Virus record (IMG/VR): IMGVR_UViG_3300044825_000904
Coordinates: 40,272 to 104,271 of that record
Length of the DNA: 64,000 bases
Strand: one strand, 5' to 3'
DNA from: a virus
The position numbers and the translations under genes were made by a program. Under the pieces are notes generated by a model. It did no database searches. It had not been told where the DNA came from and saw nothing but the letters and a program-made list of their open reading frames with translations. This document shows positions 1-33,864 of the stretch, in pieces; position 1 is the first letter of the stretch; every line of letters begins with the position of its first letter.

Positions 1-772
1 TTTCCAGACCATTTATAATTGAATTCCAAAGAGCTCCTCCCCAATTACCTTGCTCTGCTTTTTTCTTATAGTTTGCTACAGCTTTCTTTTTTAATTCAAG
101 ATTTGCTACATCAACCTCACTTGCTTGATTATTAAGTGCCTGAGATCTTTGGTTTAATTCCTCTTGTCTTTTTTGTAAGTCTTTTTGAAGTGTAATTAAT
201 TGGGGATCAGACGGATTAAGTTCAGCTAATTGCTGAAAAGAATTTAAGTCATCTTGAAACGATTTCGAGTCAGCATTAAATGCCTTGATATCAGATGCCA
301 CAAGTTTTGATTTCTCAATGACGCCTTTACTTAAAGCATTAACATCTTGTTTATTTTCTAACCAAGATTTATCTTTTAAATTATATGGTTTTGGTTTTTC
401 TGGTGCACGAAGAAGCTCGCCCTCGGTTGAAGGTAGTTCTTGTTTAGTAGGCTCTTGTGCTAAAAGTTTACTTCCTGATTGACCAAATGATGCCGATGGT
501 CCAGTTACTATCTGACCTTTGGAAACCGAAGAAGGCTTCGTAGTTTCCGAAGGAGTAGCTGAAACCATACCTTGAGTCTGGTCTTTTTTTTTTGACCAAA
601 ACTGGCCTACAAATTCTTGTTCAGATTTTGTATAAAGATTCTGCTCCTTTAAGGTATTATACAATCTCTTCTGTCCATCAGGACTACCGAACTGATTAAC
701 AAACTCATCATAAGATTTGGTATATAATTTGTCCTTACTTAATTGATCGTATAATCTTTTACCGTTATCCAT
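1..772 (-). CDS. Large internal virion/ejection protein, N-terminal part (runs off the window; absent from the ORF track)
   Basis: Manual translation MDNGKRLYDQLSKDKLYTKSYDEF... is open to base 1; twin KRLY..L....LYTKS..EFV.QF repeat; follows other ejection-type genes. Confidence 0.75.
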   Translation of the reverse strand, partial: MDNGKRLYDQLSKDKLYTKSYDEFVNQFGSPDGQKRLYNTLKEQNLYTKSEQEFVGQFWSKKKDQTQGMVSATPSETTKPSSVSKGQIVTGPSASFGQSGSKLLAQEPTKQELPSTEGELLRAPEKPKPYNLKDKSWLENKQDVNALSKGVIEKSKLVASDIKAFNADSKSFQDDLNSFQQLAELNPSDPQLITLQKDLQKRQEELNQRSQALNNQASEVDVANLELKKKAVANYKKKAEQGNWGGALWNSIINGLE

Positions 773-784
773 AAATTCTTGTTA

Positions 785-2236
785 TTATTTATCGTCCAAT
801 AGACCTGGTTTTTTATTCGTACCCTTGTAATCAAATAAGGTTCTGTTAGGATTATTGCCAGCTTGAACCCAATCTCTTTTTGCTGTTTCGGACGTACCAT
901 ATTCCTCGCCCATTCTATTGTCCTTTGTTAATCTTTGGTATATAGCATCTGGGTCTATTCGTATTCTATCATATGTTCCACCCACATTAGATCCCTTTAC
1001 TTTATTTCCGTTTTCGTCTTTTTTAAATATATTAAATCCAATTACATCATTACCACGTTTTAATGGTTCGACTATAACTGAACCTGTTGGGTACAATCCA
1101 GCTATTTCAGATAATACTTGTGGGTTTGTTGGGTCTTTTCTAAATGTTTCGGACATACCTACAGCGTGTCCATATAAATCTCTTCTTTTTGTTACAGCTT
1201 CAGGAGTTTTTTCAGCTTTATCCGGTTTAGGAGGTGCCCACCCAGCAGTCTCACTTTCCTTCTGCCCAACACCTACTTCAATTTGGTCTCTAACATAAGA
1301 CTGTGCTGCTTTCTTTTGAGTATCAGTAAGCACTGGAGTAAGAACCCCATTTACTCTTTCTGCAGAAATAATATTCTCAGCAAGCACTCCATTTGCTATT
1401 AATTGTTTTTTCTCAGCTTCTGTTTCCGCAAATTGGTATCCTCCTGCATAATCCATTAAAACACTAGCGGCTTTAAATGGCGTTACTGTTAATGCATTAA
1501 CTTGAAGTTCAAGTGCATTTTTATATGAAGAATTTTGTCGAGCATTTTCAATAAGTTCAATTCTACCTCCTCCGAGATTTTTAGCAATACCATAATCAGA
1601 TACACGCTTTAAGAATTCGGTAACACCATTATTCAAGTCAACTTTTTCATCAATAATATTATATTGATTAATCATTGACACTGGACTATATACATTAGTT
1701 GGTGCATCAACAAGACCTGTTTTAGGATTTACTTTAGCTCCATAAACACGTAATGTGTCTGGATTAACATAAAGTTTTCCGTCTTTAATATCAAGTTGTT
1801 GACCATATTTTTCTGAACGATATCTACCAAATCCAGACATTTTTCCGCTTGCATTCATTTTTTGAATGCCTTCCATAATCCCTGCATTATTTTTAAGGGC
1901 TTTTGATACATTACCCCAATCAGTCATAAGCGTATTTTTCTTCAGCTTATAATCTGCCATAGTAATGGCACCTTTCTTCAATAAATCGTATTGAGTTTTT
2001 AGTGCATTACGAGCTTCATCTACACCTTTATACAAATATTCATTTGTTGTTTGGTCTGTAGTACTTTCGTATTCACCAATTTTTTGAAAAGTTTCAGAAA
2101 AATCATTTTCAATTTTTTCTTTTTCTGCTTTTCTATCTTCATTTATCTTGTTATACTGATCAAATAACTGCGTACCAATCTTACCCCAATCTGTTGGAGG
2201 AACTTGATTGCCTACATATCCTGCGTATTCTGCCAT
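785..2236 (-). CDS. Putative internal virion (ejection) protein
   Basis: 483 aa, helical N-terminus, position after the nozzle and GNAT genes. Confidence 0.55.
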   Translation of the reverse strand: MAEYAGYVGNQVPPTDWGKIGTQLFDQYNKINEDRKAEKEKIENDFSETFQKIGEYESTTDQTTNEYLYKGVDEARNALKTQYDLLKKGAITMADYKLKKNTLMTDWGNVSKALKNNAGIMEGIQKMNASGKMSGFGRYRSEKYGQQLDIKDGKLYVNPDTLRVYGAKVNPKTGLVDAPTNVYSPVSMINQYNIIDEKVDLNNGVTEFLKRVSDYGIAKNLGGGRIELIENARQNSSYKNALELQVNALTVTPFKAASVLMDYAGGYQFAETEAEKKQLIANGVLAENIISAERVNGVLTPVLTDTQKKAAQSYVRDQIEVGVGQKESETAGWAPPKPDKAEKTPEAVTKRRDLYGHAVGMSETFRKDPTNPQVLSEIAGLYPTGSVIVEPLKRGNDVIGFNIFKKDENGNKVKGSNVGGTYDRIRIDPDAIYQRLTKDNRMGEEYGTSETAKRDWVQAGNNPNRTLFDYKGTNKKPGLLDDK

Positions 2237-2246
2237 GTTTGATTAA

Positions 2247-3158
2247 TTAAAAAGTAGAATTAGCATACCACTCATTGTTAATTGGATTCCATGCATACTG
2301 CTGGTCAAATGCACTTTGTGGTGCACGAAGTCCCGATAATTTAAAAGCATCATATTGTCCTTGAGCAGCTCTTAACCCTTGTAAATTTTGGTTATAATTA
2401 AAATTAGACTTCATTGCACTTTGAGCAGGAGTCATAATTCCTTGCGGCATCATTTTATTTAACTGTGGAGCTAATGCTTGTTGTGCATTAGTGCCAATTT
2501 GTTGAGTCTGCTGATTAGTTAATTGACTTTGATACGGCTTTAAATTAACTCCTGTTGTATCTTGTCCCCATAAAGGTTGGTCTTTCATATATTGACCAGC
2601 AAGATTGCCAGCTGTCTGAGCAATTCCTTGAATCCCCATGTTGATTTGGCTTTGTCCATAAGCAGCCGCAGCTTGAGCTCCTTCTAACCGTTGCTGTTCT
2701 AATCCTGATTTTCTAGCTAAATTTCTTTGTTCTACCCCTTGAGCATTTTGTGCTTGAGCTAAGTCACGTGCATATTGAGCTTGTTGAGCTTGTGCTGCTA
2801 ACTGTAAATCTTCTGCTTGACCTTGTTGGTTTAGTGCAGTAAGACCACCTAATACTCCAGCTGCACCAATATCCCTTAACCCTTGTAGCTGTTGTGCTTG
2901 TCTGGCTTGAACATTTTGTTGAGCCATTTCTAATCCAAGAGTAGGAACTTGCAAACTTTTAAATTTGTCAGCCTCTTGCATTTGGGCTAAAGATTGAGCT
3001 GCTTTGCTTGCTGCATCTTCTGCTTCTCCTTTAGCATTTGATCCTTGAATAATATTTAATGCAGAACCACCAGCAGCTACGGCTCCTGTGACACCAGCTG
3101 CTATTATAGGTGCTGTTAATGCTGTTCCAGCTATTAATGATGCTGTTATTGCTGCCAT
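2247..3158 (-). CDS. Putative ejection/pilot protein
   Basis: Hydrophobic Ala/Gly-rich N-terminus followed by Gln/Ala coiled coil. Confidence 0.6.
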   Translation of the reverse strand: MAAITASLIAGTALTAPIIAAGVTGAVAAGGSALNIIQGSNAKGEAEDAASKAAQSLAQMQEADKFKSLQVPTLGLEMAQQNVQARQAQQLQGLRDIGAAGVLGGLTALNQQGQAEDLQLAAQAQQAQYARDLAQAQNAQGVEQRNLARKSGLEQQRLEGAQAAAAYGQSQINMGIQGIAQTAGNLAGQYMKDQPLWGQDTTGVNLKPYQSQLTNQQTQQIGTNAQQALAPQLNKMMPQGIMTPAQSAMKSNFNYNQNLQGLRAAQGQYDAFKLSGLRAPQSAFDQQYAWNPINNEWYANSTF

Positions 3159-3159
3159 G

Positions 3160-3567
3160 TTATAATAATTTAATCATTTCTGTACAATTGGTATTTGATT
3201 TTGTAAATCCACATTTTTCGTATTTACTAACCAAACTCTTATTAATAAGACAAGTCCAAACAGCTTTATGCCCTGCATCCTTACAAGCCTGAGATATTGT
3301 TTCAATTAATAACTCAATAGCCTCGTGTCTATCCTTATCCTTATATTTAAAATTAGATACTATAAACTCACAAAATGCGATCCCTGAATTAGTGAAATAT
3401 GCAAAACCTGCACAAACATCCACATCTCCTTTTGAAATCATAAAACCACCTAATCCATTGTTGGGTAGCATTTCTTTTGGAGGGGCTTGCCATCTCCAAT
3501 CTTTCCACCATTTTACCAATGTATTATCGTAGTCACTTTCGTTTAGTAACCTAATATTAAATTTCAT
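3160..3567 (-). CDS. GNAT-fold protein of the podovirus tail/ejection module
   Basis: 135 aa, IRLL..SD start, AGFAY strand, YEKCGF near the end; T7 gp13-like position. Confidence 0.6.
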   Translation of the reverse strand: MKFNIRLLNESDYDNTLVKWWKDWRWQAPPKEMLPNNGLGGFMISKGDVDVCAGFAYFTNSGIAFCEFIVSNFKYKDKDRHEAIELLIETISQACKDAGHKAVWTCLINKSLVSKYEKCGFTKSNTNCTEMIKLL

Positions 3568-3571
3568 TCTA

Positions 3572-3579
3572 CAAATATA
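3572..3579 (-). promoter_or_regulatory. Bacteroidota -7 promoter element TATATTTG
   Basis: Matches TAnnTTTG, 4 nt before the ATG at 3567. Confidence 0.6.
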
Positions 3580-3588
3580 ATTAAATTA

Positions 3589-4317
3589 TCAAGGATAACT
3601 CTTGAATACGTCAGAAGTTACCATATACATTTCTGTGTAATCTGTATCGTTATTTGTAAACTCTACGCTCAAGTAAGTTCCCCTTGTTGGGCTAGACTCA
3701 GCTACCGGGCTCTTCTCGTAAAGAATAAAGCTACCATTTGTTGGTGCGGTCCCAGTCACACTCACGGTTACTGTAGTCGCAGTGTGTGCAGTGATTGTTC
3801 CAATTAACGTAAGTACGCCTGCGTTAACCCAATAAAGAACGTCTCCTGTGCTAATTATATCACCAATATTAAACGCAAACGTAAGTACACCTGCCGCATA
3901 CGTAGTCACATTACCTATGCCCTGTACAGATGTCATAGACACATCGCTATGTGTGGCTTCGTTACGTCTGATATAAGCGTACCAAGTACCTTCTTTTAAC
4001 GCATACCAATCTGCATCGATATACCCTTCTCCTTGGTCAGCTAAGATAGCTGTTTCCCAAGCAGTCGTTGAGTTGGTGGCTATTGTTTTAAATGACTTTG
4101 TTTGAGACGGCTCGTTATTAAATATGGTTGTTATTTTAGACGGGTACAATGTCCCATAGTAACTATTTCTAGTCGTATTGGAGTTATGCTTGTATAAATT
4201 ACCGTTCTTAAATGTGTACAAATAATTATTCATAGACACCATCCACTCTGGTAAATATGAGTGGTATGATGTCCATCCTGATAATCTCGGAGAATATGTT
4301 ATTGTATAGTTAGCCAT
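3589..4317 (-). CDS. Tail nozzle/stabilisation protein, C-terminal part as a separate gene
   Basis: YSPRLSGWTSYHSYLPEWM...TFKNGNLYKHN, KSFKTI, RGTYL..EF motifs. Confidence 0.65.
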   Translation of the reverse strand: MANYTITYSPRLSGWTSYHSYLPEWMVSMNNYLYTFKNGNLYKHNSNTTRNSYYGTLYPSKITTIFNNEPSQTKSFKTIATNSTTAWETAILADQGEGYIDADWYALKEGTWYAYIRRNEATHSDVSMTSVQGIGNVTTYAAGVLTFAFNIGDIISTGDVLYWVNAGVLTLIGTITAHTATTVTVSVTGTAPTNGSFILYEKSPVAESSPTRGTYLSVEFTNNDTDYTEMYMVTSDVFKSYP

Positions 4318-4324
4318 ATGCTTA

Positions 4325-4332
4325 CAAATTTA
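4325..4332 (-). promoter_or_regulatory. Bacteroidota -7 promoter element TAAATTTG
   Basis: TAnnTTTG 7 nt before the ATG at 4317. Confidence 0.55.
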
Positions 4333-4344
4333 CTTATTTTAATA

Positions 4345-7300
4345 TTACGGACAACTATAGAACGATGTTATTTGAATTGAACCATTATATCCAGGAGGAA
4401 CAGTAGTTTGTGTTAATGTGGCTCCTGTATAAGTATAGAACTTCTCTGTTGGATATGGCAATACATATCTTCTACCAACTGATCCAGGAACAATCGTAGT
4501 GTATGCATATCCTGTACCAGGAGAGCATTCTGATAACTCATAGTAAGTAGTTAATGTCTCACAACCCGTTTCTCCTGTAGGAGTAATTGCTAATAATGTC
4601 CCACCAGGGTTGTATTCTATTTCACCTGTAATAACATACGTACTACCCCCTGATGTAACTCTGTCATCTATGTTAAATATGCCGGTAGCATAACTTTGAG
4701 AGTTAGCAGTAGAGCTATCAAAGCAGTTAAACAATTGATACCAATAAGCAGCAGGAGTAGGACATCCTTGAAGTCCTGTAGGCTCAACATCTATTAAAAC
4801 TCCTGCAGGCTCTTCATGTAAAACCTCAATGATATTAAATGTAGAATCACCAAAAGTGACACGATCATTAAGTTCATAAGTACCTGCCGCATACTGAATT
4901 GTATATGGAGTACTAAATACATCACAGTTTAATAATTTATACCAATCGTATAATACCTCTTGACTGATATTTAATACTACATCATCAGCACAACTATTTA
5001 TTGTTATGTCTAAATCTCTAGCAGTTGTGGTATTTTCTGTAACTGTAACTGTAATCAATTGATTATTAGAACCAAATCTATCACTTAATGTAACCCAAGT
5101 GTTAGTCGGAACAGTTATCTCCCAATCAGAATTAGACTCAATGTAAAATGTTTTGCTCTGAGCCAAACCATCAAATGATAAAGATGTAGGTGTTACCGAT
5201 AATGAGCAAGTTTTAATTTGTCTATCATTATCTAACGCTAAAACATAATGCTCAAAGTATGGATCAAACATTCCTAGTTTTACTGTATTAGTATCTAAGT
5301 TTGCTTTAAACCAGTTCTTCATTCCTTGGGATGAGACCTCAAATAAACCATTAGGTTGTAATGCCATAACAGCACCACGTCTAGCGTCAGTAAAGAATAA
5401 ATCATTACCCCACTTAGTAAAACTTTCTGGGTTTAAACTAATACCATATTCTCCTTCGTAAGAAATTTGAGTACCCAATACCTCAGGAATAGATGCAACT
5501 ACGCCTCCACCTGTTGAATCACTCAATAAATTCTTACCATAAAGAACTTTAGATATCTTATTCTCTTGCAATACAACTAAATCTGTATCACGAGAGAATA
5601 GTTTTTGGATAGAACCAAAGAATCTATCTAAGTATTTAAAGTTTCCAAGTGATAAGTTAAACTCATTTAATCTATTAATTGCAGATGTCTGAGTATAAAT
5701 ACCGCTGTATGTAAGAGCTTGAACTAAAGTTTGCTGCTCATATCCCTCAATGGTAGAGTTTACACGTGGGCTAAACTGCATTGTTGCAGAATTCCACGCA
5801 TCCCTAATTCTAAAACTTTCAACACCATTACCAAAAGTAAATGCATTAAAATCAGAATTAAAGTCAAGTGTATTTAAATCTATTATCGCCGGAGCCCCCA
5901 ATGCAATATTCTGATTGTCAACATTTCCATAGTGATTGCCATCGATAATAGGATACGTTTGTGAAAGCTCATAGTATATATCTTGGTTAGTGTCAGTTGG
6001 AACAGTCTCAAATAAAGAAGGGAACTCAGATTGTTGTAACGAAAATTCCGTATCAATAGCTGGTTCTGCTCCTCCTTGATAAGAGTAGAAATACATATAC
6101 ACAGGGTAAGCTAAAGATGTCGAACTTATAGTTGATCCTTGCGATATACTTCCTGGTCTTCCCGAAGATAACTGTAAACCTCTTCTAAAACAAACATTTT
6201 TAGGACCAACATTTTCATCACTAGTTCCTAATGCAACCCATTTTTGGTATGCCCCATCCTCAACAAACCATTCTTCAATATTAACATAATCTCTTGTAGA
6301 GATAAATGTCTGGGTAATCCATTGGTCTGTCCCGTTTGTTTCTTTATACTTAAATGTTAATATAGCTCCCGCTTTAACAGGTCTATCTTCATCGTGAGCA
6401 GCAGTAGGGTCCCAATTATTTAATGTAAAGAATACTCCTGGTACAGGAGTATTATAATCTATGTAACCTCCGAATATATTTAAACATACTTCTGCTACAT
6501 TCCCTCTGCAATTAACAACCCAATAATCTTTAAATGTATATCCACTATTAGCCGCAAATCTAATAGAACAAGTTCCACCCGAATAGGTTAATACTTGGTC
6601 TGCAGCAGAGTTAATAGTAATTCCACTAGCAACTAAAACTTTATAATTACCATTTTGAGATGCGTAATATTTAAAAGTAGTTCCTGCAACATTATCAATT
6701 TCTACATAAAATCTAGTATCATTGTCTCCAGTGTATACATTAGATGCACCTGTAGTCATTGTATCTAAACCTGAACCGTAGAATATAGCATTCTCAGCAA
6801 CATTAAATCTATCAAAAACTAAAGTTGTAGCTGAACTAGGGTATCCTCCAACATTATAATCTTTATAATATGTTACAGGAGGTAACTCTGACGCTTCAAT
6901 TTTTAATTTAAAATATACACCTGCAGGCTGAACTGAATCAGCACTGTTTAAGAAGTTGGCATTTTTAGATTCAATATCTAATACTTTATATTGAACATTA
7001 GTATTAGTTGCAGCACTTTTTAAATACAAATAAGAACCAACCGATATTTTATCTTGGTCAGCTTGGTTAATTAAAAACCATTTAAACTGACCATCATTAA
7101 AATAAGTTAATGGGAATACATTATAATAGTCCTGCTTATCCTGCTTAATCATAAAGCGATAATGTGTAGCAAAAGATGGTGGCTGGTAAGTACCATCAAT
7201 TGTGATACGAATATTATTCGCATCAACAGCATTAACAGGAGGTATGTAAATTGTATTAGTATTATCTGTTGGTGTAATCACAGTAGTTGTTCTCCCGTAA

Positions 7301-8463
7301 TCATCCAAGTAGACAATACCAATCTCATAGTCTCTATTGCTTTTAAACGTAGGAGTAGGTGTTCCACTGACTACTGAATTAGATAATAGTGATACTGAGA
7401 AAGCTGGATTAATGGGTTCTTTGTTTTCCTTTAACAAATCAAAGAATTGAGTATAATTACCATATACCAATCTACTTCCAATTAACTCTTGAGACTTCGC
7501 CTTAATAGGCACGTTATCAAACAATCTATTTACTTGCTCAATTGGCAATAATGTAAATACTTTATTGTTTTTAAACTTATATTGATATTCCGAATCGTCG
7601 TCGTAATTATTTAGAGATTTAACTAAATTATCAATCACATAAGTATTAGTACTTAATGTATCTCTAAAAACCAACTGAATCTCTTTTACAGTTTTAGGCC
7701 CAGAGTTGAAAGTTATATCTGCTGTGTTAAAGTTGTTAACCATAGATACGTTCTCTGATACACCATAATCGTATGCATATTCTTTTGGAAAGAATGCTAC
7801 AGGTGAGAATGGAGATAGAGCACTATACTCGTTGTCTAAATATTTATATCTGTAAGAAAAGTATAAAAATTTATTCTCTAAGTTGTTAGCTTCACCCTGT
7901 GAATATAAATTAATTGTTGGTGCCGATAAAGGAGGAGCTAAGATAACATTGATGTCAGCCTCAGTAAATCCATTTACAGCATAATTCTTCGCACGATCAA
8001 TATTAATCCTGCGTGGAGGATTTAGATTGTCAGTCCAAAAAAGCAACCCGTTAATATAGTTGATACCTGTAACAAAAAACTCTTTATTAAAGCCAAGTTT
8101 TGAGGTTGTAGTAGGCGTTTTAGTTGCCTGAATAACAGGTGTTGTTAAATCTAATGTTTCATTGTATTCATAAATAGCATCCAAGTAATCAGATGCTACT
8201 AACCAATAGATACAATTGTTAGCCTCATAAGCAAGTGAACCAATACACATTGCATTGGTTAACTCGTAGTCCGTTCCCTTTAATACGTTACCTAAATAAT
8301 TTTGTGCTACCCCATTATGTGAGCCTTCTTCAGAAACAAATGTTCCATCAGAATCGCCCACAATAATATTGAGTGCATCTCTATATGCACCATCAGGTAA
8401 AAAGTGAGGGTCAAGATCTTTATTCATGACCCCCGAAAGGAAATTTCTTTGAAGTTCTATCAT
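4345..8463 (-). CDS. Tail nozzle/stabilisation protein with C-terminal BACON-like domain and three Cys-bracketed repeats
   Basis: F.SG.MNKDLD..FLP.G.Y.DALN, LFWTD.LNPPRRIN, RLVYGNY, YGIS.NPESF motifs; 1372 aa. Confidence 0.75.
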   Translation of the reverse strand: MIELQRNFLSGVMNKDLDPHFLPDGAYRDALNIIVGDSDGTFVSEEGSHNGVAQNYLGNVLKGTDYELTNAMCIGSLAYEANNCIYWLVASDYLDAIYEYNETLDLTTPVIQATKTPTTTSKLGFNKEFFVTGINYINGLLFWTDNLNPPRRINIDRAKNYAVNGFTEADINVILAPPLSAPTINLYSQGEANNLENKFLYFSYRYKYLDNEYSALSPFSPVAFFPKEYAYDYGVSENVSMVNNFNTADITFNSGPKTVKEIQLVFRDTLSTNTYVIDNLVKSLNNYDDDSEYQYKFKNNKVFTLLPIEQVNRLFDNVPIKAKSQELIGSRLVYGNYTQFFDLLKENKEPINPAFSVSLLSNSVVSGTPTPTFKSNRDYEIGIVYLDDYGRTTTVITPTDNTNTIYIPPVNAVDANNIRITIDGTYQPPSFATHYRFMIKQDKQDYYNVFPLTYFNDGQFKWFLINQADQDKISVGSYLYLKSAATNTNVQYKVLDIESKNANFLNSADSVQPAGVYFKLKIEASELPPVTYYKDYNVGGYPSSATTLVFDRFNVAENAIFYGSGLDTMTTGASNVYTGDNDTRFYVEIDNVAGTTFKYYASQNGNYKVLVASGITINSAADQVLTYSGGTCSIRFAANSGYTFKDYWVVNCRGNVAEVCLNIFGGYIDYNTPVPGVFFTLNNWDPTAAHDEDRPVKAGAILTFKYKETNGTDQWITQTFISTRDYVNIEEWFVEDGAYQKWVALGTSDENVGPKNVCFRRGLQLSSGRPGSISQGSTISSTSLAYPVYMYFYSYQGGAEPAIDTEFSLQQSEFPSLFETVPTDTNQDIYYELSQTYPIIDGNHYGNVDNQNIALGAPAIIDLNTLDFNSDFNAFTFGNGVESFRIRDAWNSATMQFSPRVNSTIEGYEQQTLVQALTYSGIYTQTSAINRLNEFNLSLGNFKYLDRFFGSIQKLFSRDTDLVVLQENKISKVLYGKNLLSDSTGGGVVASIPEVLGTQISYEGEYGISLNPESFTKWGNDLFFTDARRGAVMALQPNGLFEVSSQGMKNWFKANLDTNTVKLGMFDPYFEHYVLALDNDRQIKTCSLSVTPTSLSFDGLAQSKTFYIESNSDWEITVPTNTWVTLSDRFGSNNQLITVTVTENTTTARDLDITINSCADDVVLNISQEVLYDWYKLLNCDVFSTPYTIQYAAGTYELNDRVTFGDSTFNIIEVLHEEPAGVLIDVEPTGLQGCPTPAAYWYQLFNCFDSSTANSQSYATGIFNIDDRVTSGGSTYVITGEIEYNPGGTLLAITPTGETGCETLTTYYELSECSPGTGYAYTTIVPGSVGRRYVLPYPTEKFYTYTGATLTQTTVPPGYNGSIQITSFYSCP

Positions 8464-9360
8464 TTACTTAATCCACTTAGATTGGCCTCTCATGCTCATT
8501 AACAAGCGACCTGGGTGTAAATTACTTAATCTAATCTTTGCGTTTCTCCAATTAGAAACTTTTTCTTTGCGAGCTCGTGAAATAACATACTCAGGCTGGT
8601 TTGCCTTTGTGTTTAAGATAGCCCATTTAATGTATGAGTAAATATACTCTTCTGCTAACTTAGGAATAGTAATCTGAGCGTCGTCACCTGGATACAATCC
8701 GTCTGAAATATATTCTAATACAACAGAGCGATTAAACATACCTGAGCTAAAGTTAATAACTCCAGCTGCTTTGTCTACTCTAAATGTAGGGTTTACGTTT
8801 GCTACTTCAGTATTCAATCCATAAGCAGCACCGAATCCCCAAGTGAAATACCAAAGACCATCTACATACCAACCCCACTGATTATTGAATGGGCATAGCA
8901 TATAGTTCTCTCCATCAATACGAGACAAGTCTAGTTTAGATGTTCCTTGTAGGGCATTGCCTTGGTCATCAAATAAAATCTGATACTCATCATCCTGCAA
9001 AAATTCAATAGATGAATTAGCCTGAGGATTCTCAGTCATTGGGTATAAGTTTCCACCCCAAAATAAAGATACACGAACATAGTTCACGTAATCAGGAGGC
9101 AATATAAACTTAAGGTCATGTCCAACTTCTAACTGCAAAGCATTAATCTGACGATTACCATCGTAGTTTAATTCCTGTACAGCTCTTTTGGCGTGGAATA
9201 ATACCTTGTATCTGTTGATGTTATTCAACAAATCGCCATCATCTGTATACATTAAGATGAAGTTATTTACAACATCGCCTAATGTTACATTCTGATACGT
9301 GCCCCAATTGGCATCGGTAGGGGTGACCCCATCATTGGTATAATATTTCTCCTGATTCAT
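8464..9360 (-). CDS. Tail ring/adaptor (tubular) protein
   Basis: LP.DYVNYVR, LEYISDG, IPKLAEEY motifs; next to the nozzle gene. Confidence 0.65.
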   Translation of the reverse strand: MNQEKYYTNDGVTPTDANWGTYQNVTLGDVVNNFILMYTDDGDLLNNINRYKVLFHAKRAVQELNYDGNRQINALQLEVGHDLKFILPPDYVNYVRVSLFWGGNLYPMTENPQANSSIEFLQDDEYQILFDDQGNALQGTSKLDLSRIDGENYMLCPFNNQWGWYVDGLWYFTWGFGAAYGLNTEVANVNPTFRVDKAAGVINFSSGMFNRSVVLEYISDGLYPGDDAQITIPKLAEEYIYSYIKWAILNTKANQPEYVISRARKEKVSNWRNAKIRLSNLHPGRLLMSMRGQSKWIK

Positions 9361-10052
9361 TATTGTTGTTTTTGATCAGTGTATGCTTCTTCTGCTCTTG
9401 CCGCTTGAACCACATCCATTTCTCTAATGTTAACACCTGCATATTCACAAATCTTAACGACTAACTTAGGGAAGTCAGATATAGCCAACTCGAAATCTTG
9501 GTAGTCATTAGCCGATTGATTAAACAAAGGGCTACCGTTAACTACTGTATAAGTCCATTTAGGATCTAACGGGTATCTAACGTAATAGATATTAATGTTA
9601 TCCGTAATGGTATTCGGGTACACAGTAACTTGATTACCTTGCATAACATACGTAGGGTATGTTTCTGTAGGTGCTGTTAAATTGGAATTAAGCAAATAAT
9701 ATAATTTACCTTGGTCCACATGAGTAACCTCTTTACCATTATAGTATAATACATTTAATAAGAAAAAGTTTGCAGGTAAGTCGAATCTACTATCTCCTGA
9801 ATTGTATACCAAGTCTTCGTTCTTAGAGAAATAGTCAATAGTTTGGTCTATTTGCTTAGTGATATCGGAGTACCCACTGGTCTCCATACCCTTCATATCT
9901 TTTATCTTAGCCTGCTGAAAGTCAAAGAAGTATTGTTGGAACAATTCTAACTGAGCTTGCTTTGCAAAGCTGTTGAATTCTTCTGGTGTAATAAACCCAT
10001 TATTATCCTTATTGATAATATTTAGGACAGTATTTCGTACGGAATTTATCAT
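9360..10052 (-). CDS. Tail ring/adaptor protein (start moved to MINSVRNTV)
   Basis: NKDNNGFITPEEFN..A.QAQL motif; the longer track start crosses a terminator and promoter. Confidence 0.65.
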   Translation of the reverse strand: MINSVRNTVLNIINKDNNGFITPEEFNSFAKQAQLELFQQYFFDFQQAKIKDMKGMETSGYSDITKQIDQTIDYFSKNEDLVYNSGDSRFDLPANFFLLNVLYYNGKEVTHVDQGKLYYLLNSNLTAPTETYPTYVMQGNQVTVYPNTITDNINIYYVRYPLDPKWTYTVVNGSPLFNQSANDYQDFELAISDFPKLVVKICEYAGVNIREMDVVQAARAEEAYTDQKQQ

Positions 10053-10057
10053 AATGA

Positions 10058-10065
10058 CAAAGATA
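10058..10065 (-). promoter_or_regulatory. Bacteroidota -7 promoter element TATCTTTG
   Basis: TAnnTTTG 5 nt before the ATG at 10052. Confidence 0.6.
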
Positions 10066-10067
10066 AT

Positions 10068-10092
10068 AAAAAAAGGGCACTCAGTGTGCCCT
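10068..10092 (-). terminator. Intrinsic terminator
   Basis: AGGGCAC/GTGCCCT stem followed by a T tract on the minus strand. Confidence 0.75.
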
Positions 10093-10098
10093 CTTAAT

Positions 10099-10845
10099 TT
10101 AGCGATATTTTTTAGATAGTAACTCGTAGACATCTAAACCATCATTGCTTTGGAGCCATGACACAAGTAGTTTGGTTGGGTCTTCTCCAAATGGAACGCC
10201 CATTAACTTATTCTTATTGTCAGGCAGGTTAAAGAAGATGTCACGTTTTTTATTCTTCAATACAAACGTACCATCTTGCAATGCCTTAGCTGCGATATCA
10301 TTCAACTTAAGCTCAGGATCATTTAACATGTTCATGAATTCGTAAGGATGGTTACGTGCATATAAAATTAAGTCACGTCTCAATTCCTCTGTAGTTAAAC
10401 GATCAACACGAGCACCTAATAGTACACGTCCTAATGCATCAGCTGTATTGATATCTAAATCACGTGCAGCAAGTTGTGCATCCAATTGAGAGTACATAAC
10501 CTCAATCTGATTGTTTGCATCTCTTTGAGTATCAACCTCTTCGAACAACACACCATTGTCTGGGTGTAATTCTAGGAATTGTTGTAATACCTGGTTGTAT
10601 TTGTTAACAGCTAACAAACCATCTTCAAAGATGATTGGCTCTAAAATGAAGTTACCATCTTGCTCATCTTCAAATGGAGACTTCTGGTTAACTGCATAAC
10701 GTAAAGCTCTATTAAGACCTTTAGAAGCGTCAAAGTATAGTAATGATTTGTTTCTAGTATTTCTACTAGCAAGCATAAAGCTGATAGGGAATGTTTTTCT
10801 TTTAAGGACATAGATCTTGTCCTTTAATTCTTTCTGAGTTGACAT
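10099..10845 (-). CDS. Uncharacterised protein downstream of the capsid gene
   Basis: 248-aa ORF; position only. Confidence 0.6.
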   Translation of the reverse strand: MSTQKELKDKIYVLKRKTFPISFMLASRNTRNKSLLYFDASKGLNRALRYAVNQKSPFEDEQDGNFILEPIIFEDGLLAVNKYNQVLQQFLELHPDNGVLFEEVDTQRDANNQIEVMYSQLDAQLAARDLDINTADALGRVLLGARVDRLTTEELRRDLILYARNHPYEFMNMLNDPELKLNDIAAKALQDGTFVLKNKKRDIFFNLPDNKNKLMGVPFGEDPTKLLVSWLQSNDGLDVYELLSKKYR

Positions 10846-10874
10846 TATATTTGATTTTAAAATTTAAACAAATT

Positions 10875-10901
10875 AAATAAGGGGAGACCGAAGCCTCCCC
10901 C
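10875..10901 (-). terminator. Intrinsic terminator after MCP
   Basis: GGGGAGGC-TTCG-GTCTCCCC then TTATTT on the minus strand. Confidence 0.8.
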
Positions 10902-10909
10902 TAAGTTTA

Positions 10910-12325
10910 CTAGTTCTCGAACAAGAAGAAGTTGTTCGCACCAAGAGTACATAATGCACGCTCAGATAAGAAGTTAACTTCCATTGCATCTAAAGAACTT
11001 GTTTGAGCACCACCAGCAGAACCAGTGATCCAAGTTTTGTAACGACGATCTTCAGTTTCAGAAGCACGGTAACGTACGTGTAAGAACGGACGCTTAGCAT
11101 TCTTTCCTAAGATTTGATCGTATACGTTAGTAGAACCTGCAGGTACCAAGATACCATTGATAGCTCCACCTACGATTCCACCACGAGTAGTTGCATCGTT
11201 TAAGTATTTCCAGTCAGTCTTGTAGAAATCGTATCCACGCTTAAAGCCTGTGAAACCTAAGTTTAACGCCATAGTCTCGCTGTTGTCGAATAAACCGTAA
11301 GAAGTACCACCTGAACCATAAGAGTTTTGTGATGCCAACATATCGTCGATATCAAAACCAAACTTACGGTTTAAGAAGATAACATTCTCTTGGATTGCTC
11401 CTTGCTTATCAAGACGTTGGATGATAGAATCGAAGTCAGACAAAGTAGTTGGGTTACCACCTGCCCATACGTTTCCACGCTCAGCAACAGCATTGAATAA
11501 ACCTTGAGTACCAGCAGCACCAGGTTGTACTTGAGAAGAAGCTACAGTTAAGTAAGTAGCAGCAGCTGAACCAGCTTCTGCAGGAACACCTTCAACCATT
11601 GACATCTCTAAGTAATCTTCGAAACGTAAACGAGTCTCGTGCTCAGACTTGATGTACCATAAGTAACCAGTAGCACCGTTCTCAGAAGTTACTTCAACCC
11701 ATCCGATTTGAGCCATGTCAGAACCAGAAACAGCGTACTTATCTTTGATGATAATTGGCTTGTTTTCGAAGAAGATATCTTGAGACTCTAAAGAACCGTC
11801 CATTCCTAATGAACCTTTAGTGAATTCAGAACCGTAAACGAATGCAGTAGAAGCAGTATCTACAGCGATTGATTGTCCTGAAGCAGCATAGTAAGCTACT
11901 GTGAAAGTGTTAGCAGTTGTATCTACTGCAGTGATAACCGCTTTATCAGAAGCAGAACCAGAGTTTGCAGATAAGAATACAGTTTGGTTAACACGGAAGT
12001 TAACAGTTACATCTGCATCTTCAACAGTCCACACAGCTGTATCTTGTCCTGCAGCAGCTGCTGAAGTACAGTTTACATACTTAGTGTGTAAACGACCTTG
12101 CTCTGCCCATTTGATTAAGTCAGAGTTAGAAGGTAATTCTGCACCTACCATACGTAAGAAAGATGCAATAGAACGATTACCATAACGCTCGAATTCAGCC
12201 TCGTAAGTATCAGGAAGATACTGATTTAAGAAATCGAAGTTAGTAATGTAGTTTGTAGGCAATGTTGCCTTTACCGCTGAGGGCTCTAATTGAAAGCCCG
12301 GGGTAGCTTGAACTGATCCAGCCAT
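10910..12325 (-). CDS. Major capsid protein, phage A
   Basis: 471 aa; WAEQGRLH, W..K.E.ETR.RF.D..E motifs; after the scaffold and before a strong terminator. Confidence 0.85.
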   Translation of the reverse strand: MAGSVQATPGFQLEPSAVKATLPTNYITNFDFLNQYLPDTYEAEFERYGNRSIASFLRMVGAELPSNSDLIKWAEQGRLHTKYVNCTSAAAAGQDTAVWTVEDADVTVNFRVNQTVFLSANSGSASDKAVITAVDTTANTFTVAYYAASGQSIAVDTASTAFVYGSEFTKGSLGMDGSLESQDIFFENKPIIIKDKYAVSGSDMAQIGWVEVTSENGATGYLWYIKSEHETRLRFEDYLEMSMVEGVPAEAGSAAATYLTVASSQVQPGAAGTQGLFNAVAERGNVWAGGNPTTLSDFDSIIQRLDKQGAIQENVIFLNRKFGFDIDDMLASQNSYGSGGTSYGLFDNSETMALNLGFTGFKRGYDFYKTDWKYLNDATTRGGIVGGAINGILVPAGSTNVYDQILGKNAKRPFLHVRYRASETEDRRYKTWITGSAGGAQTSSLDAMEVNFLSERALCTLGANNFFLFEN

Positions 12326-12344
12326 TGTTTTTGTTTTTTTGGTT

Positions 12345-13433
12345 TTAGTTTTTTAAAGATTTAATCTTAAGTCTGTTACCATGGTCACTATCCAATGCTG
12401 TTACTTTAAACCCACCTTTGTCGATATTTTGTGGAGCATTTCTAACGCTCATATCGATGTTCTTGCTTTGACGAACTGAGTCATCAATTGCATCTGCTTT
12501 GCCCATATCATAAAAGAATTTGGCCATCGCATCCGGGTTCATTGCCGCAGCAATTGTTTTGTGATACTGTTTAGCATCCTTAATGTATCCATTTTCATCA
12601 ACGAAATTAGTGAAGAATTTGGAAATGTCTGTTTGTTGAGCTTTCAGCTGCTCTGGAGTTCCAGGTTTATAAGATACTTCCTTATCTCCAACTTTGAAAT
12701 CAAAACCTTTGAATTCATCAGAGAATAATTCATTTGTCTTATTCATAAAGTACTCCGACTTTTTAGCCTGCTCTTGCTGCATAGCAGTAGATTGGCTGAT
12801 ATATTGCTTGTAAGATTCCAAAGCCTCTTTGTCCTCAGCAGGAATAGCAGCTTCCATCCTCGACTCAAGGGGAGCTTTGTATTTTTCCTTTTGTTCTTCA
12901 AAGTACTTTGACGCCTTGCCAAGTTCTTTTTTAAGTGCTAACTTCTTGCGTTTGATTTCTTTTTCGTCATCCATCTCCTCATCGTATCCAAACTTTGATT
13001 CATATTCGAATGCGATATCCTCATCATCAAAATCAGGATTAGTCTCACGCATGTAGTCAGCTAGAAGTCTTTCTGGGTTAACCTTAGAAAAATCTTGGTT
13101 AACACGATAGAAATCTTCTAAACCACGCCCTGTGTCTTTCTTGAATTTTAAGAAAGCATTTACGTCTTCAGGAAGTAATTCCTGTTGTGGTCTCTCTGTA
13201 AATAATTCATCCAAAGAGTTTACCTCCTTGTTGAACTTTGTTTTTAAATATGAAAGAACGTCGTTGTCACCAAATTGCGGCGACTCTACTACAGGTGGCT
13301 CTTCTACATGTGTCTCCTCTACAGGAGCTACATCTTCAGCCATCTTTTGTTCGTGCTGATCAAGCAACTGTTGCTCGATTTCTTGCACAGACTTTTCTTC
13401 AAAGTCTACAAGTTTTACTTGAATATTATCCAT
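12345..13433 (-). CDS. Putative scaffolding protein
   Basis: Acidic coiled-coil 362 aa between portal and MCP. Confidence 0.6.
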   Translation of the reverse strand: MDNIQVKLVDFEEKSVQEIEQQLLDQHEQKMAEDVAPVEETHVEEPPVVESPQFGDNDVLSYLKTKFNKEVNSLDELFTERPQQELLPEDVNAFLKFKKDTGRGLEDFYRVNQDFSKVNPERLLADYMRETNPDFDDEDIAFEYESKFGYDEEMDDEKEIKRKKLALKKELGKASKYFEEQKEKYKAPLESRMEAAIPAEDKEALESYKQYISQSTAMQQEQAKKSEYFMNKTNELFSDEFKGFDFKVGDKEVSYKPGTPEQLKAQQTDISKFFTNFVDENGYIKDAKQYHKTIAAAMNPDAMAKFFYDMGKADAIDDSVRQSKNIDMSVRNAPQNIDKGGFKVTALDSDHGNRLKIKSLKN

Positions 13434-13452
13434 TTAATTAAATTTAGTTGCA

Positions 13453-13460
13453 CAAAAGTA
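13453..13460 (-). promoter_or_regulatory. Bacteroidota -7 promoter element TACTTTTG
   Basis: TAnnTTTG upstream of scaffold-MCP. Confidence 0.55.
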
Positions 13461-13470
13461 ATAATAAAAA

Positions 13471-18113: not shown

Positions 18114-18571
18114 ATCTTTTTTAAGAATGCAACCTGTATAATTCTAGAATATTCTCCTTGCCCATAGTTATCAAAAATATTTCTTGAGTGAAGAATTGTA
18201 GAATCAAATATAAATAGTCTATTAAACTTTGCGTTGGTAATTAGTATCTTATTATAAGATTCGTCATACAATGTAGTGCCGTCATCTTTAGGTGGATTCT
18301 TTGTTAGATATAATATGGCAGTCAAATCTCCCATCATCTCATCCGTATGAATGAAGTTTGGCTCTATTTGGCCATAAGGAGATAGACGAATAAAGTTATG
18401 AGCAATCTCATAATCAGGATACATATTAAGTAGCAATTGAGCTACCTCATCCCCATCCCTAGGTTGTATGCCTTTGAAGACTTTATGTCCATCGGGCACA
18501 TCATAGAATTGACCACTTAAAACATTCTTTAAGTGATGGTCAGGATTCGGTAAAAAATTATCTACTACCAT
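18110..18571 (-). CDS. 2OG-Fe(II) oxygenase (DUF6445-like)
   Basis: VVDNFLPNP, IHTD (HxD), AILYL, DGTTLY, FNRL..FD...LHS, distal R. Confidence 0.8.
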   Translation of the reverse strand: MVVDNFLPNPDHHLKNVLSGQFYDVPDGHKVFKGIQPRDGDEVAQLLLNMYPDYEIAHNFIRLSPYGQIEPNFIHTDEMMGDLTAILYLTKNPPKDDGTTLYDESYNKILITNAKFNRLFIFDSTILHSRNIFDNYGQGEYSRIIQVAFLKKI

Positions 18572-18852
18572 TATTTACCTTTTGCTCTTTGTTCTGCAAA
18601 CCCACGGTTAGTAGGTGCAGAGTTTCCAACTACTCCCTCAATAATATTATTCTCCTCCTCGACTCTTTTAAGAATCTCAAAAGCATCCATGATGGCTAAC
18701 TTCTTTGCTGCGGCTGCGTTCTTTAATTTGTCTGCAGACAAGTCATCATCCATGTGGGTAACAATCTTCTCCTCAGCAACTTTAATCAACTCTTCAACGG
18801 CTTTATATCCAGAGTCAATGATGCGTTTCTTTAACTCAGTTATTTTGTTCAT
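18571..18852 (-). CDS. Possible terminase small subunit
   Basis: 93-aa helical protein upstream of TerL; positional inference. Confidence 0.45.
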   Translation of the reverse strand: MNKITELKKRIIDSGYKAVEELIKVAEEKIVTHMDDDLSADKLKNAAAAKKLAIMDAFEILKRVEEENNIIEGVVGNSAPTNRGFAEQRAKGK

Positions 18853-19399
18853 CTAATTTAATTGTTAAATTCTTAGTATACATACGATACACTTTCTCAC
18901 CATCAATATAGAATGGATACTCGCTCTCAGGCTCAAACGTGACCGTGTCACCCTCTTTTAATCCTAGTGCTAGTACTTCTTCGTTTGGATACTTTATCGT
19001 GCCTACAAGAGGCTTCTCTGCGTCCGCAGTAAGTATGCCTGTGCTATAGTTCTCTACCGGAGAGATGAACACGTAGCGACCAATACCAATCCAATCGGAC
19101 CCTGGCTTCTTGTATGCATACGGATCATCAATAAAGTACAAGTCATCTCGGAAGTAATTCCAAGCAGACTTCTCTCTACCACGCATATCGTAATACAACC
19201 TAAAAGTATTGTGATGCACAATGACCGTGTCGCCTGGTTCAACAGGACCCTCGTATCCAATAGGCGTAGAGATAACAACAGCCTCACGCATAGTGGCAAG
19301 GTGGTCTTCTTTCGATGTAGAAATAATAAGCTCTCCCCTCGTGTTGTCATATCTCTTGCCATCACGGGGTTGCACTATAAAGTAAAATGGGGACTTCAT
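18836..19399 (-). CDS. Tandem GroES-like co-chaperonin
   Basis: Two GroES-like halves: AVVISTP...VEPGDTVIV and GTIKY...GLKEGDTVTF...IDGEKVYRM. Confidence 0.65.
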   Translation of the reverse strand: MKSPFYFIVQPRDGKRYDNTRGELIISTSKEDHLATMREAVVISTPIGYEGPVEPGDTVIVHHNTFRLYYDMRGREKSAWNYFRDDLYFIDDPYAYKKPGSDWIGIGRYVFISPVENYSTGILTADAEKPLVGTIKYPNEEVLALGLKEGDTVTFEPESEYPFYIDGEKVYRMYTKNLTIKLDEQNN

Positions 19400-19400
19400 A

Positions 19401-33800: not shown

Positions 33801-33828
33801 TGTGTGTGTGTTTTGTGTGTATTTAACC

Positions 33829-33864
33829 AAAAAGGGTAGAGATTATATCCCTACCCCAAATGTA
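33829..33864 (-). terminator. Terminator after the tail tube gene, overlapping a TACATTTG element (33857-33864)
   Basis: GGGTAG...CTACCC stem plus T tract on the minus strand. Confidence 0.65.

What the first reader, a model, noticed from the sequence alone, without database searches (positions are those of the whole stretch)
468..772. Hidden -1 frame behind an A10 run in the ejection protein gene encodes an aromatic beta-strand tail
Seen: after 60 codons the gene reads TCA AAA AAA AAA GAC (A10 at 584-593). The -1 frame stays open for 38 codons (RPDSRYGFSYSFGNYEAFFGFQRSDSNWTIGIIWSIRK, stop 468-470), while frame 0 over the same bases is Ser/Thr/Pro low-complexity with several TCG/ACG codons, as expected for dual coding. 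Inference: a programmed slip makes a 101-aa isoform with the same N-terminal repeat domain and an amphipathic Gly/aromatic tail, possibly an outer-membrane-inserting part of the ejection channel.
Basis: partly seen in the sequence, partly recalled or inferred. Interest (0 to 1): 0.7.

Follow-up and report, generated by a model that had tools for sequence, protein, structure and literature searches.

The report
Poly-A slip site hides phage protein
A run of ten A's near the start of a giant virion-protein gene of a freshwater Bacteroidota phage is a deeply conserved slip site that most likely lets the phage also make a hidden ~100-residue protein with an aromatic beta-sheet tail. It is a new, well-supported example of a known recoding trick, and it can be tested in cultured phages.

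Summary
A10 lies at 584-593 on the minus strand, at codons 60-64 of a 2115-aa gene. The -1 frame is open for 38 codons to TAA at 468-470.

In this one genome that is barely beyond chance. Comparison with relatives makes it compelling:
- All 66 distinct homologous giant genes, down to about 20% identity, carry an uninterrupted A9-A12 run at this spot (A10 in 53).
- Elsewhere in the same genes Lys codons are 51% AAA, and none of 140 other KKK triplets is all-AAA.
- The -1 frame behind the run encodes a conserved cationic tail of 2-3 aromatic-Gly-aromatic units. This tail has no start codon of its own.
- Synonymous shuffling of frame 0 destroys the tail (2.09 versus 0.07 motifs per tail).
- AlphaFold2 predicts a three-stranded beta-meander for the tail.

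Cultured phages share the site: Cellulophaga phi38:1, Flavobacterium elemoF and Tenacibaculum Gundel_1.

The best reading is programmed slippage. RNA-polymerase stuttering is favoured and a ribosomal -1 slip is possible. Either would give a ~100-aa isoform beside the giant, polyvalent-type protein.

No RNA or protein data could be obtained, and the tail's function is inferred only. This scan has found A10 slip sites in other phage gene families, but not in this one.

The parts
584..593 (-). A10 slip site (T10 on the template strand), codons 60-64: TCA AAA AAA AAA GAC
   Evidence: Read directly. An A9-A12 run sits at the same spot in 66 of 66 distinct homologs. There was no indel here in contigs from 4 sequencing runs.
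468..584 (-). Hidden -1 frame ORF of 38 codons plus TAA (470-468). It encodes a cationic aromatic/Gly tail with YGF, FGF and IGI units.
   Evidence: The tail is conserved in alignment A3, with invariant G9 and G22 and F20 in over 90% of sequences. No ATG is available in the -1 frame in any of 66 genes. AlphaFold2 gives three strands at pLDDT 75.8.
594..772 (-). Shared N-terminal domain (codons 1-60), made of two tandem ~30-aa helix-loop-helix repeats (LYTKSY-EF type). It would be common to both isoforms.
   Evidence: AlphaFold2 model of a natural short-isoform protein (P0079, a close N-terminal relative) shows four helices at pLDDT 81-88.
2..583 (-). Frame-0 continuation of the 2115-aa giant virion protein. 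A Ser/Thr/Pro linker overlies the hidden ORF, and a coiled, K/E-rich region follows. The gene continues beyond the window to genome position 34696.
   Evidence: There are 70 homologs of 1163-3702 aa. Some homologs carry LPD23, LPD38, ART-PolyVal or GNAT domains.

Best explanation
The A10 run is a programmed slippage site at the boundary between a small N-terminal four-helix domain and the rest of a giant virion protein of the polyvalent type.

Most products are the full 2115-aa protein. A set fraction shifts into the -1 frame. That fraction ends after 38 more codons as a 101-aa isoform, made of the same N-terminal domain, a Lys hinge, and a cationic three-stranded beta-meander. Conserved glycines, flanked by aromatic residues, line up across the three strands.

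The slip is most likely made by the host RNA polymerase stuttering on the T10 template run. Adding one A puts ribosomes into the tail frame. I put this at about 60:40 over ribosomal -1 slipping or sliding on the A-run. Both routes give the identical protein.

Shown here:
- conservation of the run at the nucleotide level;
- coding constraint on the -1 frame;
- absence of an independent start codon for the tail;
- presence of the same site in cultured phages.

Inferred:
- that the isoform is actually made;
- which machine slips;
- what the tail does. My best guess, at about 35%, is that the tail oligomerises or binds the host envelope or the virion, and that the short isoform partners with the giant protein through the shared N-terminal domain.
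For: (1) Conservation of the run.
- 66 of 66 distinct homologs have a run: A10 in 53, A12 in 5, A11 in 4 and A9 in 4.
- Outside the run, Lys codons are AAA 8461 to AAG 7988.
- 0 of 140 other KKK triplets are all-AAA, and there is no other A run of 9 or more in 500 kb of these genes.
- About 79 of 86 A/T runs of 9 or more in 1.66 Mb of related loci are this site.

(2) Length is kept across codon phases and peptides. VKKK, EKKK (GAA AAA AAA AAG), EKKN, QKKN and KKKN all give A10-A11. Selection therefore acts on the nucleotides, not on the lysines.

(3) The -1 frame is coding.
- Aromatic-Gly-aromatic motifs number 140 in the -1 frame, 3 in +1 and 0 in frame 0.
- After synonymous shuffling of frame 0, motifs fall from 2.09 to 0.07 per tail, open length from 31 to 14 codons, and tails with two or more motifs from 85% to 0.3%.
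- TCG and ACG make up 27-31% of Ser and Thr codons in the overlap, against 6-7% elsewhere.
- In alignment A3, G9 and G22 are invariant.
- In independent pairs, 28 substitutions are synonymous only in -1 and 21 only in frame 0, although fewer such sites are available in -1 (688 versus 878).

(4) The tail frame has no ATG in any of 66 genes, and any ATG/GTG/TTG in only 4.

(5) Structure.
- AlphaFold2 gives a three-strand meander at pLDDT 75.8, and four helices plus the meander in a whole short isoform.
- Gly-to-Gly spacings are 9, 11 or 13. Odd spacings are what cross-strand pairing in two-residue-turn hairpins requires.

(6) 24 public proteins of 67-115 aa have exactly the predicted architecture. 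Searches for the tail profile found it in no other protein family: 5.8 billion clusters were screened through a word index, and 1.84 billion representatives were read exhaustively.

(7) The same site and tail occur in Cellulophaga phage phi38:1 gp101, where it is the only A/T run of 9 or more in the 72.5-kb genome. They also occur in Flavobacterium phage elemoF gp18 and Tenacibaculum phage Gundel_1 gp074.

(8) Favouring RNA polymerase.
- No downstream RNA structure is conserved: z is -0.51 against -0.44 in controls, p = 0.71.
- The run is kept at 9 or more, far longer than a heptamer needs.
- Bacterial RNA polymerase slips efficiently on 9 A/T, mostly adding bases, and its RNA-DNA hybrid is 9-10 bp (Atkins et al. 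2016, PMC5009743, read).
Against: - There is no direct evidence of expression. No RNA run holding this stretch was listed, and only assembled contigs could be laid on it, which cannot show minority transcripts.
- In the single genome the A10 run and the 38-codon frame are near chance levels.
- The count of synonymous versus nonsynonymous changes is small and shows constraint on both frames rather than a clean signal.
- One clade (L006, L007) has a -1 frame with weak or absent motifs.
- The window's own 90 nt behind the run fold unusually well (z = -3.07). That could serve a ribosomal mechanism here.
- The short-isoform proteins in the databases are singletons. They may be homopolymer sequencing errors rather than biology.
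- The structural models are of moderate confidence and match no known fold.
Confidence: 0.82

Rival explanations
1. The same isoform is made purely by ribosomes, through -1 programmed frameshifting or sliding of tRNA-Lys on the A-run (A_AAA_AAA or A_AAA_AAG), with homogeneous mRNA.
For: Every run contains a correctly phased A_AAA_AAN heptamer. The window's downstream 90 nt fold with z = -3.07. The G/GT chaperone site of the second phage on this contig uses A_AAA_AAG. From my own knowledge, ribosome sliding on poly-A has been described (Koutmou et al. 2015).
Against: A heptamer would be enough, yet the run is always 9 or more and mostly 10, in all three phases. No downstream structure is conserved across the family. 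From general knowledge, Shine-Dalgarno-type stimulators are not expected in Bacteroidota. Most runs end in AAA-G rather than the AAG codon that is favoured in the E. coli dnaX case.
Confidence: 0.3
2. DNA-level phase variation: replication slippage changes the run length, so subpopulations of genomes encode either the giant protein or the short one.
For: Run-length variants of +1 and -2 exist in assembled contigs and yield the short isoform as an ordinary ORF. The deposited genome of Maribacter phage Panino has A9, so its N-terminal domain is out of frame with the giant ORF.
Against: All 66 full loci and four independent runs of this phage, including a strain that differs at about 10% of positions, have the in-frame length with no indel. 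The variants are singletons and may be homopolymer errors. A genome locked in the short form would lack a 2000-aa virion protein that is conserved throughout the family.
Confidence: 0.06
3. The run is only an attenuator that throttles output of the very large protein, through stalling or abortive frameshifting. The -1 peptide would be a by-product with no function.
For: A-runs of 9 or more are strictly avoided elsewhere in these genes. This shows that such runs are costly to expression.
Against: This does not explain the conserved aromatic-Gly motifs, the invariant glycines, the rare TCG and ACG codons, or the 30-fold motif excess over synonymous shuffles. The +1 frame, which is equally available as a sink, is not conserved.
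Confidence: 0.05
4. There is no recoding. KKK is a protein-level motif, and the -1 conservation merely echoes a conserved frame-0 linker.
For: Frame 0 has a loosely conserved K-K-K-[DEN] and Pro-Ser-rich pattern.
Against: EKKN and QKKN variants keep A10 with only two lysines. AAA makes up 51% of Lys codons elsewhere, and 0 of 140 other KKK triplets are all-AAA. Synonymous shuffles that keep the frame-0 protein destroy the -1 features.
Confidence: 0.03

Closest known systems
Thermus thermophilus dnaX tau/gamma (transcriptional slippage on an A9 run; Larsen et al. 2000, as summarised in Atkins et al. 2016, PMC5009743)
   Same: A homopolymeric A/T run of 9 or more lies inside a long ORF. The full-length product is in frame 0 and a shorter product comes from transcripts with extra A's. 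No downstream stimulator is needed.
   Different: Gamma ends within a few codons of the slip. Here the shifted frame encodes a conserved 16-61-codon module. The gene is a giant phage virion protein, not a replication factor, and the slip lies at codon ~60 of ~2100.
Potyvirus P3N-PIPO (polymerase slippage at GA6 into a start-less overlapping ORF) - from my own knowledge
   Same: A hidden overlapping ORF without a start codon is reached only by slippage. It is detectable through suppressed synonymous variation and gives an N-terminal domain plus a new C-terminal module.
   Different: That case is a eukaryotic RNA virus with a viral RdRp and a shorter run. Nothing links the proteins.
Phage tail-assembly chaperone G/GT -1 frameshift (Xu, Hendrix and Duda 2004) and T7 capsid 10A/10B
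   Same: Phage structural-module recoding sets a fixed ratio of two proteins that share an N-terminus. A canonical G/GT site sits on this same contig at 33430-33438.
   Different: G/GT and 10B extend a short protein. This site truncates a giant one. It is not upstream of a tape-measure gene, and its run is longer than a heptamer with no stimulator.
Citrobacter rodentium tssM transcriptional frameshifting on a poly-A run (Gueguen et al. 2014, PMC4256274; title and abstract seen)
   Same: A bacterial RNA polymerase slips on an A-run and produces two length variants of a large envelope-machine protein.
   Different: There the slippage rescues an interrupted gene. Here frame 0 is intact and the alternative frame carries its own conserved domain.
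Polyvalent proteins of phages and conjugative elements (Iyer et al. 2017, PMC5512222)
   Same: These are giant multidomain phage proteins. Homologs of this gene carry LPD23, LPD38, ART-PolyVal and GNAT domains.
   Different: That paper mentions no frameshift, slippage or N-terminal repeat. The window's own protein has no recognisable Pfam, PHROG, NCBIfam or PDB domain.

Membership tests
Programmed transcriptional slippage sites (dnaX-Thermus / IS-element type) | Homopolymeric A or T run of about 9 or more, matching the RNA-DNA hybrid length | tested here: met
   A10 at 584-593. A9-A12 in 66 of 66 homologs.
Programmed transcriptional slippage sites (dnaX-Thermus / IS-element type) | The run is conserved at the nucleotide level, beyond codon bias, among diverged homologs | tested here: met
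   AAA is 51% of Lys codons elsewhere. 0 of 140 other KKK triplets are all-AAA. Length is kept in three codon phases.
Programmed transcriptional slippage sites (dnaX-Thermus / IS-element type) | mRNA population heterogeneous in run length while the DNA is homogeneous | not testable with these tools
   No RNA holder was listed. Only contigs could be laid, and they cannot show minority variants.
-1 programmed ribosomal frameshifting (X_XXY_YYZ plus stimulator) | Slippery heptamer in the correct phase | tested here: met
   Any run of 9 or more A's contains A_AAA_AAN in phase.
-1 programmed ribosomal frameshifting (X_XXY_YYZ plus stimulator) | Conserved downstream RNA structure (or upstream SD-like stimulator) | tested here: not met
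   For 66 genes the mean z is -0.51, against -0.44 in controls, p = 0.71. Only the window itself reaches z = -3.07. An upstream SD-like stimulator was not tested.
Start-less overlapping ORF reached only by frameshift (PIPO-like logic) | No initiation codon available for the alternative frame | tested here: met
   0 of 66 genes have an ATG, and 4 of 66 have any ATG/GTG/TTG, between the upstream -1 stop and the first motif.
Start-less overlapping ORF reached only by frameshift (PIPO-like logic) | Coding constraint on the alternative frame visible in the synonymous sites of frame 0 | tested here: met
   Shuffle control and excess of TCG and ACG codons. Motif counts of 140, 3 and 0 in the three frames.
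Phage G/GT tail-assembly chaperone frameshift | Located in the gene pair immediately upstream of the tape-measure gene, with the shift extending the protein | tested here: not met
   The gene follows the muzzle-like protein of a podovirus module. The shift truncates the protein. A true G/GT site lies elsewhere, at 33430-33438.
Polyvalent proteins (Iyer et al. 2017) | Giant protein carrying LPD or effector domains | tested here: inconclusive
   P0001 itself has no significant domain. Homologs P0039, P0060, P0045 and P0043 carry LPD23, LPD38, ART-PolyVal and GNAT; the LPD38 and ART-PolyVal scores fall below Pfam's curated cut-offs.
Polyvalent proteins (Iyer et al. 2017) | Packaged in the virion and delivered to the host | not tested
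   phi38:1 gp101 and elemoF gp18 are annotated 'structural protein' in their records. Delivery to the host is not addressed.

The most novel reading that the evidence does not exclude
The hidden tail is a new, database-invisible protein module: a cationic, glycine-striped aromatic beta-meander. It would be made only by polymerase stuttering and would oligomerise into the envelope-piercing or envelope-anchoring part of the ejection apparatus of a large group of Bacteroidota podophages. The shared N-terminal domain would dock the giant polyvalent effector protein onto it. Slippage efficiency would then set the stoichiometry of conduit to cargo.
Probability: 0.2. Interest if true: 0.85.

Novelty: new member of a known kind. 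Interest (0 to 1): 0.64.

Why it matters
- It adds an unannotated protein to every phage of a widespread marine and freshwater group. The group includes Pervagoviridae, Pachyviridae, Elemovirus and many uncultured relatives.
- The tail of that protein is absent from protein databases because gene callers cannot see it.
- It shows that these phages tolerate a single long A-run in their genes and purge all others. That is a strong natural signature of slippage-prone expression in Bacteroidota hosts.
- It links recoding to the giant 'polyvalent' virion proteins, whose packaging and delivery are poorly understood.
- Because phi38:1, elemoF and Gundel_1 are in culture, the prediction can be tested directly.
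- It also explains mis-annotations such as the truncated start of the giant gene in Maribacter phage Panino.

Tried and rejected
- blastn and tblastn of the gene against the phage collection gave no match.
- Pfam, PHROGs, NCBIfam and PDB sequence searches of the 2115-aa protein gave nothing significant.
The closer alignment A2 worked.
- Expression evidence: no RNA holder was listed. The four runs laid were contigs only. They show the A10 without an indel but cannot show transcripts.
I therefore could not tell whether the short-isoform ORFs in the databases come from DNA or from cDNA.
- Fold searches of the tail and of the whole short isoform gave no match at E <= 0.001. The Atlas look-alikes were below the recognition level. 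One cluster with PagP fragments is only a weak lead.
- A conserved frameshift-stimulating RNA structure was rejected.
- Independent initiation of the tail ORF was rejected.
- An equivalent site in Crassvirales was not found. The only A9 in phi14:2 is in a region of removed small ORFs. crAss001 has many A-runs, which I did not analyse. NC_024711 is not in the collection.

Full report
WHAT IS THERE

On the minus strand an ORF starts at ATG 772. After 59 codons it reads TCA AAA AAA AAA GAC, so an A10 run occupies 593-584. The -1 frame from 584 stays open for 38 codons to TAA at 470-468.

The ORF leaves the window. The window is positions 40272-104271 of a 104,271-bp IMG/VR virus record, and there the gene is 2115 aa long.

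Within this one genome the features are close to chance:
- Shuffles give about 2.5 A/T runs of 10 or more per genome, and 2 are seen.
- A -1 frame open for 38 or more codons starts at 1.1% of codon positions of the gene. It arises in 3.7% of synonymous shuffles of codons 64-113.

WHAT THE GENE IS

The neighbours are a virion module:
- a 1372-aa protein matching PHROG 14478;
- a separate 242-aa ORF with the crassvirus muzzle C-terminal domain;
- three smaller ORFs, followed by the giant gene.

By tblastn, the nearest cultured phages are Cellulophaga phi38:1 and phi40:1, Calle, Flavobacterium 'elemo' phages, Tenacibaculum Gundel_1 and Maribacter Panino. In phi38:1 the same gene order ends in gp101, which is annotated as a structural protein.

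The 2115-aa protein itself has no recognisable domain. It has 70 homologs of 1163-3702 aa. Some of these carry LPD23, LPD38, ART-PolyVal or GNAT domains, although the LPD38 and ART-PolyVal hits score below Pfam's cut-offs. That suggests a giant 'polyvalent' virion protein (Iyer et al. 2017, PMC5512222). That paper mentions no frameshift.

THE RUN IS CONSERVED AS NUCLEOTIDES

Eighty related loci were fetched. In 66 distinct genes, with identities to the window protein down to about 20%, the first Lys-rich motif after the variable N-terminal repeats is always an unbroken A-run: A10 in 53, A12 in 5, A11 in 4 and A9 in 4.

Elsewhere in the same genes:
- AAA and AAG are used 51:49;
- none of 140 other KKK triplets is all-AAA;
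- no other A run of 9 or more exists in 500 kb.

About 79 of the 86 A/T runs of 9 or more in 1.66 Mb of these loci are this site.

The run starts at codon position 1, 2 or 3. It spells VKKK, EKKK, EKKN, QKKN or KKKN, yet it stays about 10 long. Selection is therefore on the run, not on lysine.

THE -1 FRAME IS A HIDDEN CODING REGION

Behind the run the -1 frame encodes a cationic tail of 16-61 residues, with a mean net charge of +4.5. The tail is built from two or three units of the type [WY]-F-[FIY]-G-[IF]-x-[FI].

- Such motifs occur 140 times in the -1 frame, 3 times in +1 and never in frame 0.
- An alignment of 40 tails has two invariant glycines and one phenylalanine conserved in over 90% of sequences.
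- A control re-drew synonymous codons while keeping the frame-0 protein. Motifs fell from 2.09 to 0.07 per tail, open length from 31 to 14 codons, and tails with two or more motifs from 85% to 0.3%.
- The rare codons TCG and ACG are needed to spell F-G and Y-G in the -1 frame. They make up 27-31% of Ser and Thr codons in the overlap, against 6-7% elsewhere.
- In independent sequence pairs, changes silent only in -1 (28) outnumber changes silent only in frame 0 (21), although fewer such sites exist (688 versus 878). This signal is small.
- The one difference from a 99%-identical contig is Ser to Leu in frame 0 and silent in -1.
- The tail frame has no ATG in any of the 66 genes, so it can only be entered from frame 0.
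- The +1 frame shows no conservation.
- Frame 0 over the overlap is a low-complexity Ser/Thr/Pro linker. This is the kind of sequence that can bear a second code.

STRUCTURE

AlphaFold2, run on the tail alignment, gives three strands (6-14, 17-26 and 29-38) joined by two-residue turns, at mean pLDDT 75.8.

In that model the conserved glycines (9, 22 and 33) are cross-strand neighbours. Independently, the Gly-to-Gly spacings in the family are 9, 11 or 13. Only odd values allow such pairing.

One face of each strand is aromatic or aliphatic. The other is Gly/Ser/Thr.

A natural short-isoform protein (P0079) folds as four helices (pLDDT 81-88) followed by the meander (pLDDT 57-68).

No fold search gave a significant match.

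THE PREDICTED ISOFORM EXISTS AS AN ORF IN PUBLIC DATA

A profile of the tail finds only short proteins of 67-115 aa with the architecture 'N-terminal repeats, then KK(K)(K), then the tail'. They have several different repeat types. Ten came from the 5.8-billion-cluster set and 14 of the 16 hits from the exhaustive 1.84-billion set.

They correspond to run lengths of +1 or -2, and the ten whose clusters I looked up are singletons.

The tail occurs in no other protein family.

In Maribacter phage Panino the deposited run is A9. Its N-terminal domain is therefore out of frame, and the giant gene was annotated from a GTG just after the run.

CULTURED PHAGES

The following all have an A10 at codons 33-57 and an aromatic-Gly tail in the -1 frame:
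- phi38:1 gp101;
- elemoF gp18 (3694 aa);
- Gundel_1 gp074 (2482 aa).

In phi38:1 it is the only A/T run of 9 or more in 72.5 kb.

The crassvirus phi14:2 has no such site.

MECHANISM

Both polymerase and ribosome slippage would give the same protein. I favour RNA polymerase, at about 60:40, for three reasons:
- The run is kept at 9-12 nt in every codon phase, although a heptamer would serve the ribosome.
- No downstream RNA structure is conserved. The window alone folds well there.
- Bacterial RNA polymerase slips efficiently on 9 A/T and mainly adds bases, and its hybrid is 9-10 bp (Atkins et al. 2016, PMC5009743). Adding one A is exactly what opens the conserved frame.

No RNA data could be obtained. 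DNA contigs of four runs, from independent studies, keep A10 without an indel.

FUNCTION (INFERRED)

The two products share a small helical domain. One product carries about 2000 residues of presumed virion cargo or effector. The other carries a cationic amphipathic sheet that probably needs partners.

I think a structural partnership is most likely, in which the tail oligomerises or binds the virion or the host envelope.

COMPARISON AND NOVELTY

The logic matches Thermus dnaX and tssM (a poly-A run giving two lengths) and potyvirus PIPO (a start-less overlapping ORF). It is not the G/GT chaperone shift; a canonical example of that lies at 33430-33438 on this contig.

I found no description of this site:
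- in papers on these phages;
- in the polyvalent-protein paper;
- in the part of the recoding review that is held (the first 300,000 of 449,034 characters), which names no Cellulophaga, Flavobacteria or Bacteroidetes.

Earlier agents of this scan reported conserved A10 slip sites in other phage gene families on other genomes, but none on this sequence. The kind is therefore known, and this family-wide member, with its hidden tail module, is new.

Noticed in passing
window 28835-28844 (-), ORF 28821-30899 (-): A second A10 (TCT AAA AAA AAA ACT) lies four codons before the stop of a 692-aa virion gene next to the tape-measure gene. The -1 frame continues for 32 codons. Six related contigs keep the same arrangement. 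One relative (L092, 86% identical) also has an A10 (GAA AAA AAA AAG) but carries the homologous extension in frame 0, giving 720 aa. This is probably a second slippage site, of the C-terminal-extension type.
   Followed up: partly
window 33430-33438 (-), ORF 33423-33830 (-): An A9 (ACA AAA AAA AAG AGG TAA) ends a 135-aa ORF. The -1 frame runs 105 codons and stops at 33115-33117, exactly at the start of the tape-measure gene (30899-33115). This is a canonical G/GT tail-assembly-chaperone frameshift.
   Followed up: partly
window 1-19400 versus 22200-42400: The contig carries two complete-looking virion modules. One is podovirus-like with a muzzle protein, as in Pervagoviridae. The other is siphovirus-like with a tape measure. 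Relatives of the podovirus part are 60-73 kb long, so the 104-kb record may be a join of two phages.
   Followed up: no
L087:26530-26900 (Maribacter phage Panino, PP540027.1): The deposited genome has A9 where relatives have A10. The KYPEY-repeat N-terminal domain is out of frame with the giant ORF. CDS0069 was annotated as a 'tRNA methyltransferase' starting at a GTG behind the run, and a small ORF was called on the opposite strand. This is either a homopolymer error or a genome that needs slippage to make the full protein.
   Followed up: partly
window 494-583 (-): The 90 nt behind the A10 fold with -28.2 kcal/mol, z = -3.07. The family as a whole shows no such tendency. The fold may be a by-product of the repeated TTCGG and GAAAC words that encode the F-G units.
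   Followed up: partly
L004-L083, first 25-90 codons of the giant genes: The N-terminal domain in front of the run is modular. At least six unrelated types of two-copy repeat (LYTKSY-EF, DELPDF, KYPEY, SGKY-FPEL, GY-KS and QYGILD types) precede the same run and tail. This suggests exchange of the N-terminal module around a fixed slip site.
   Followed up: no
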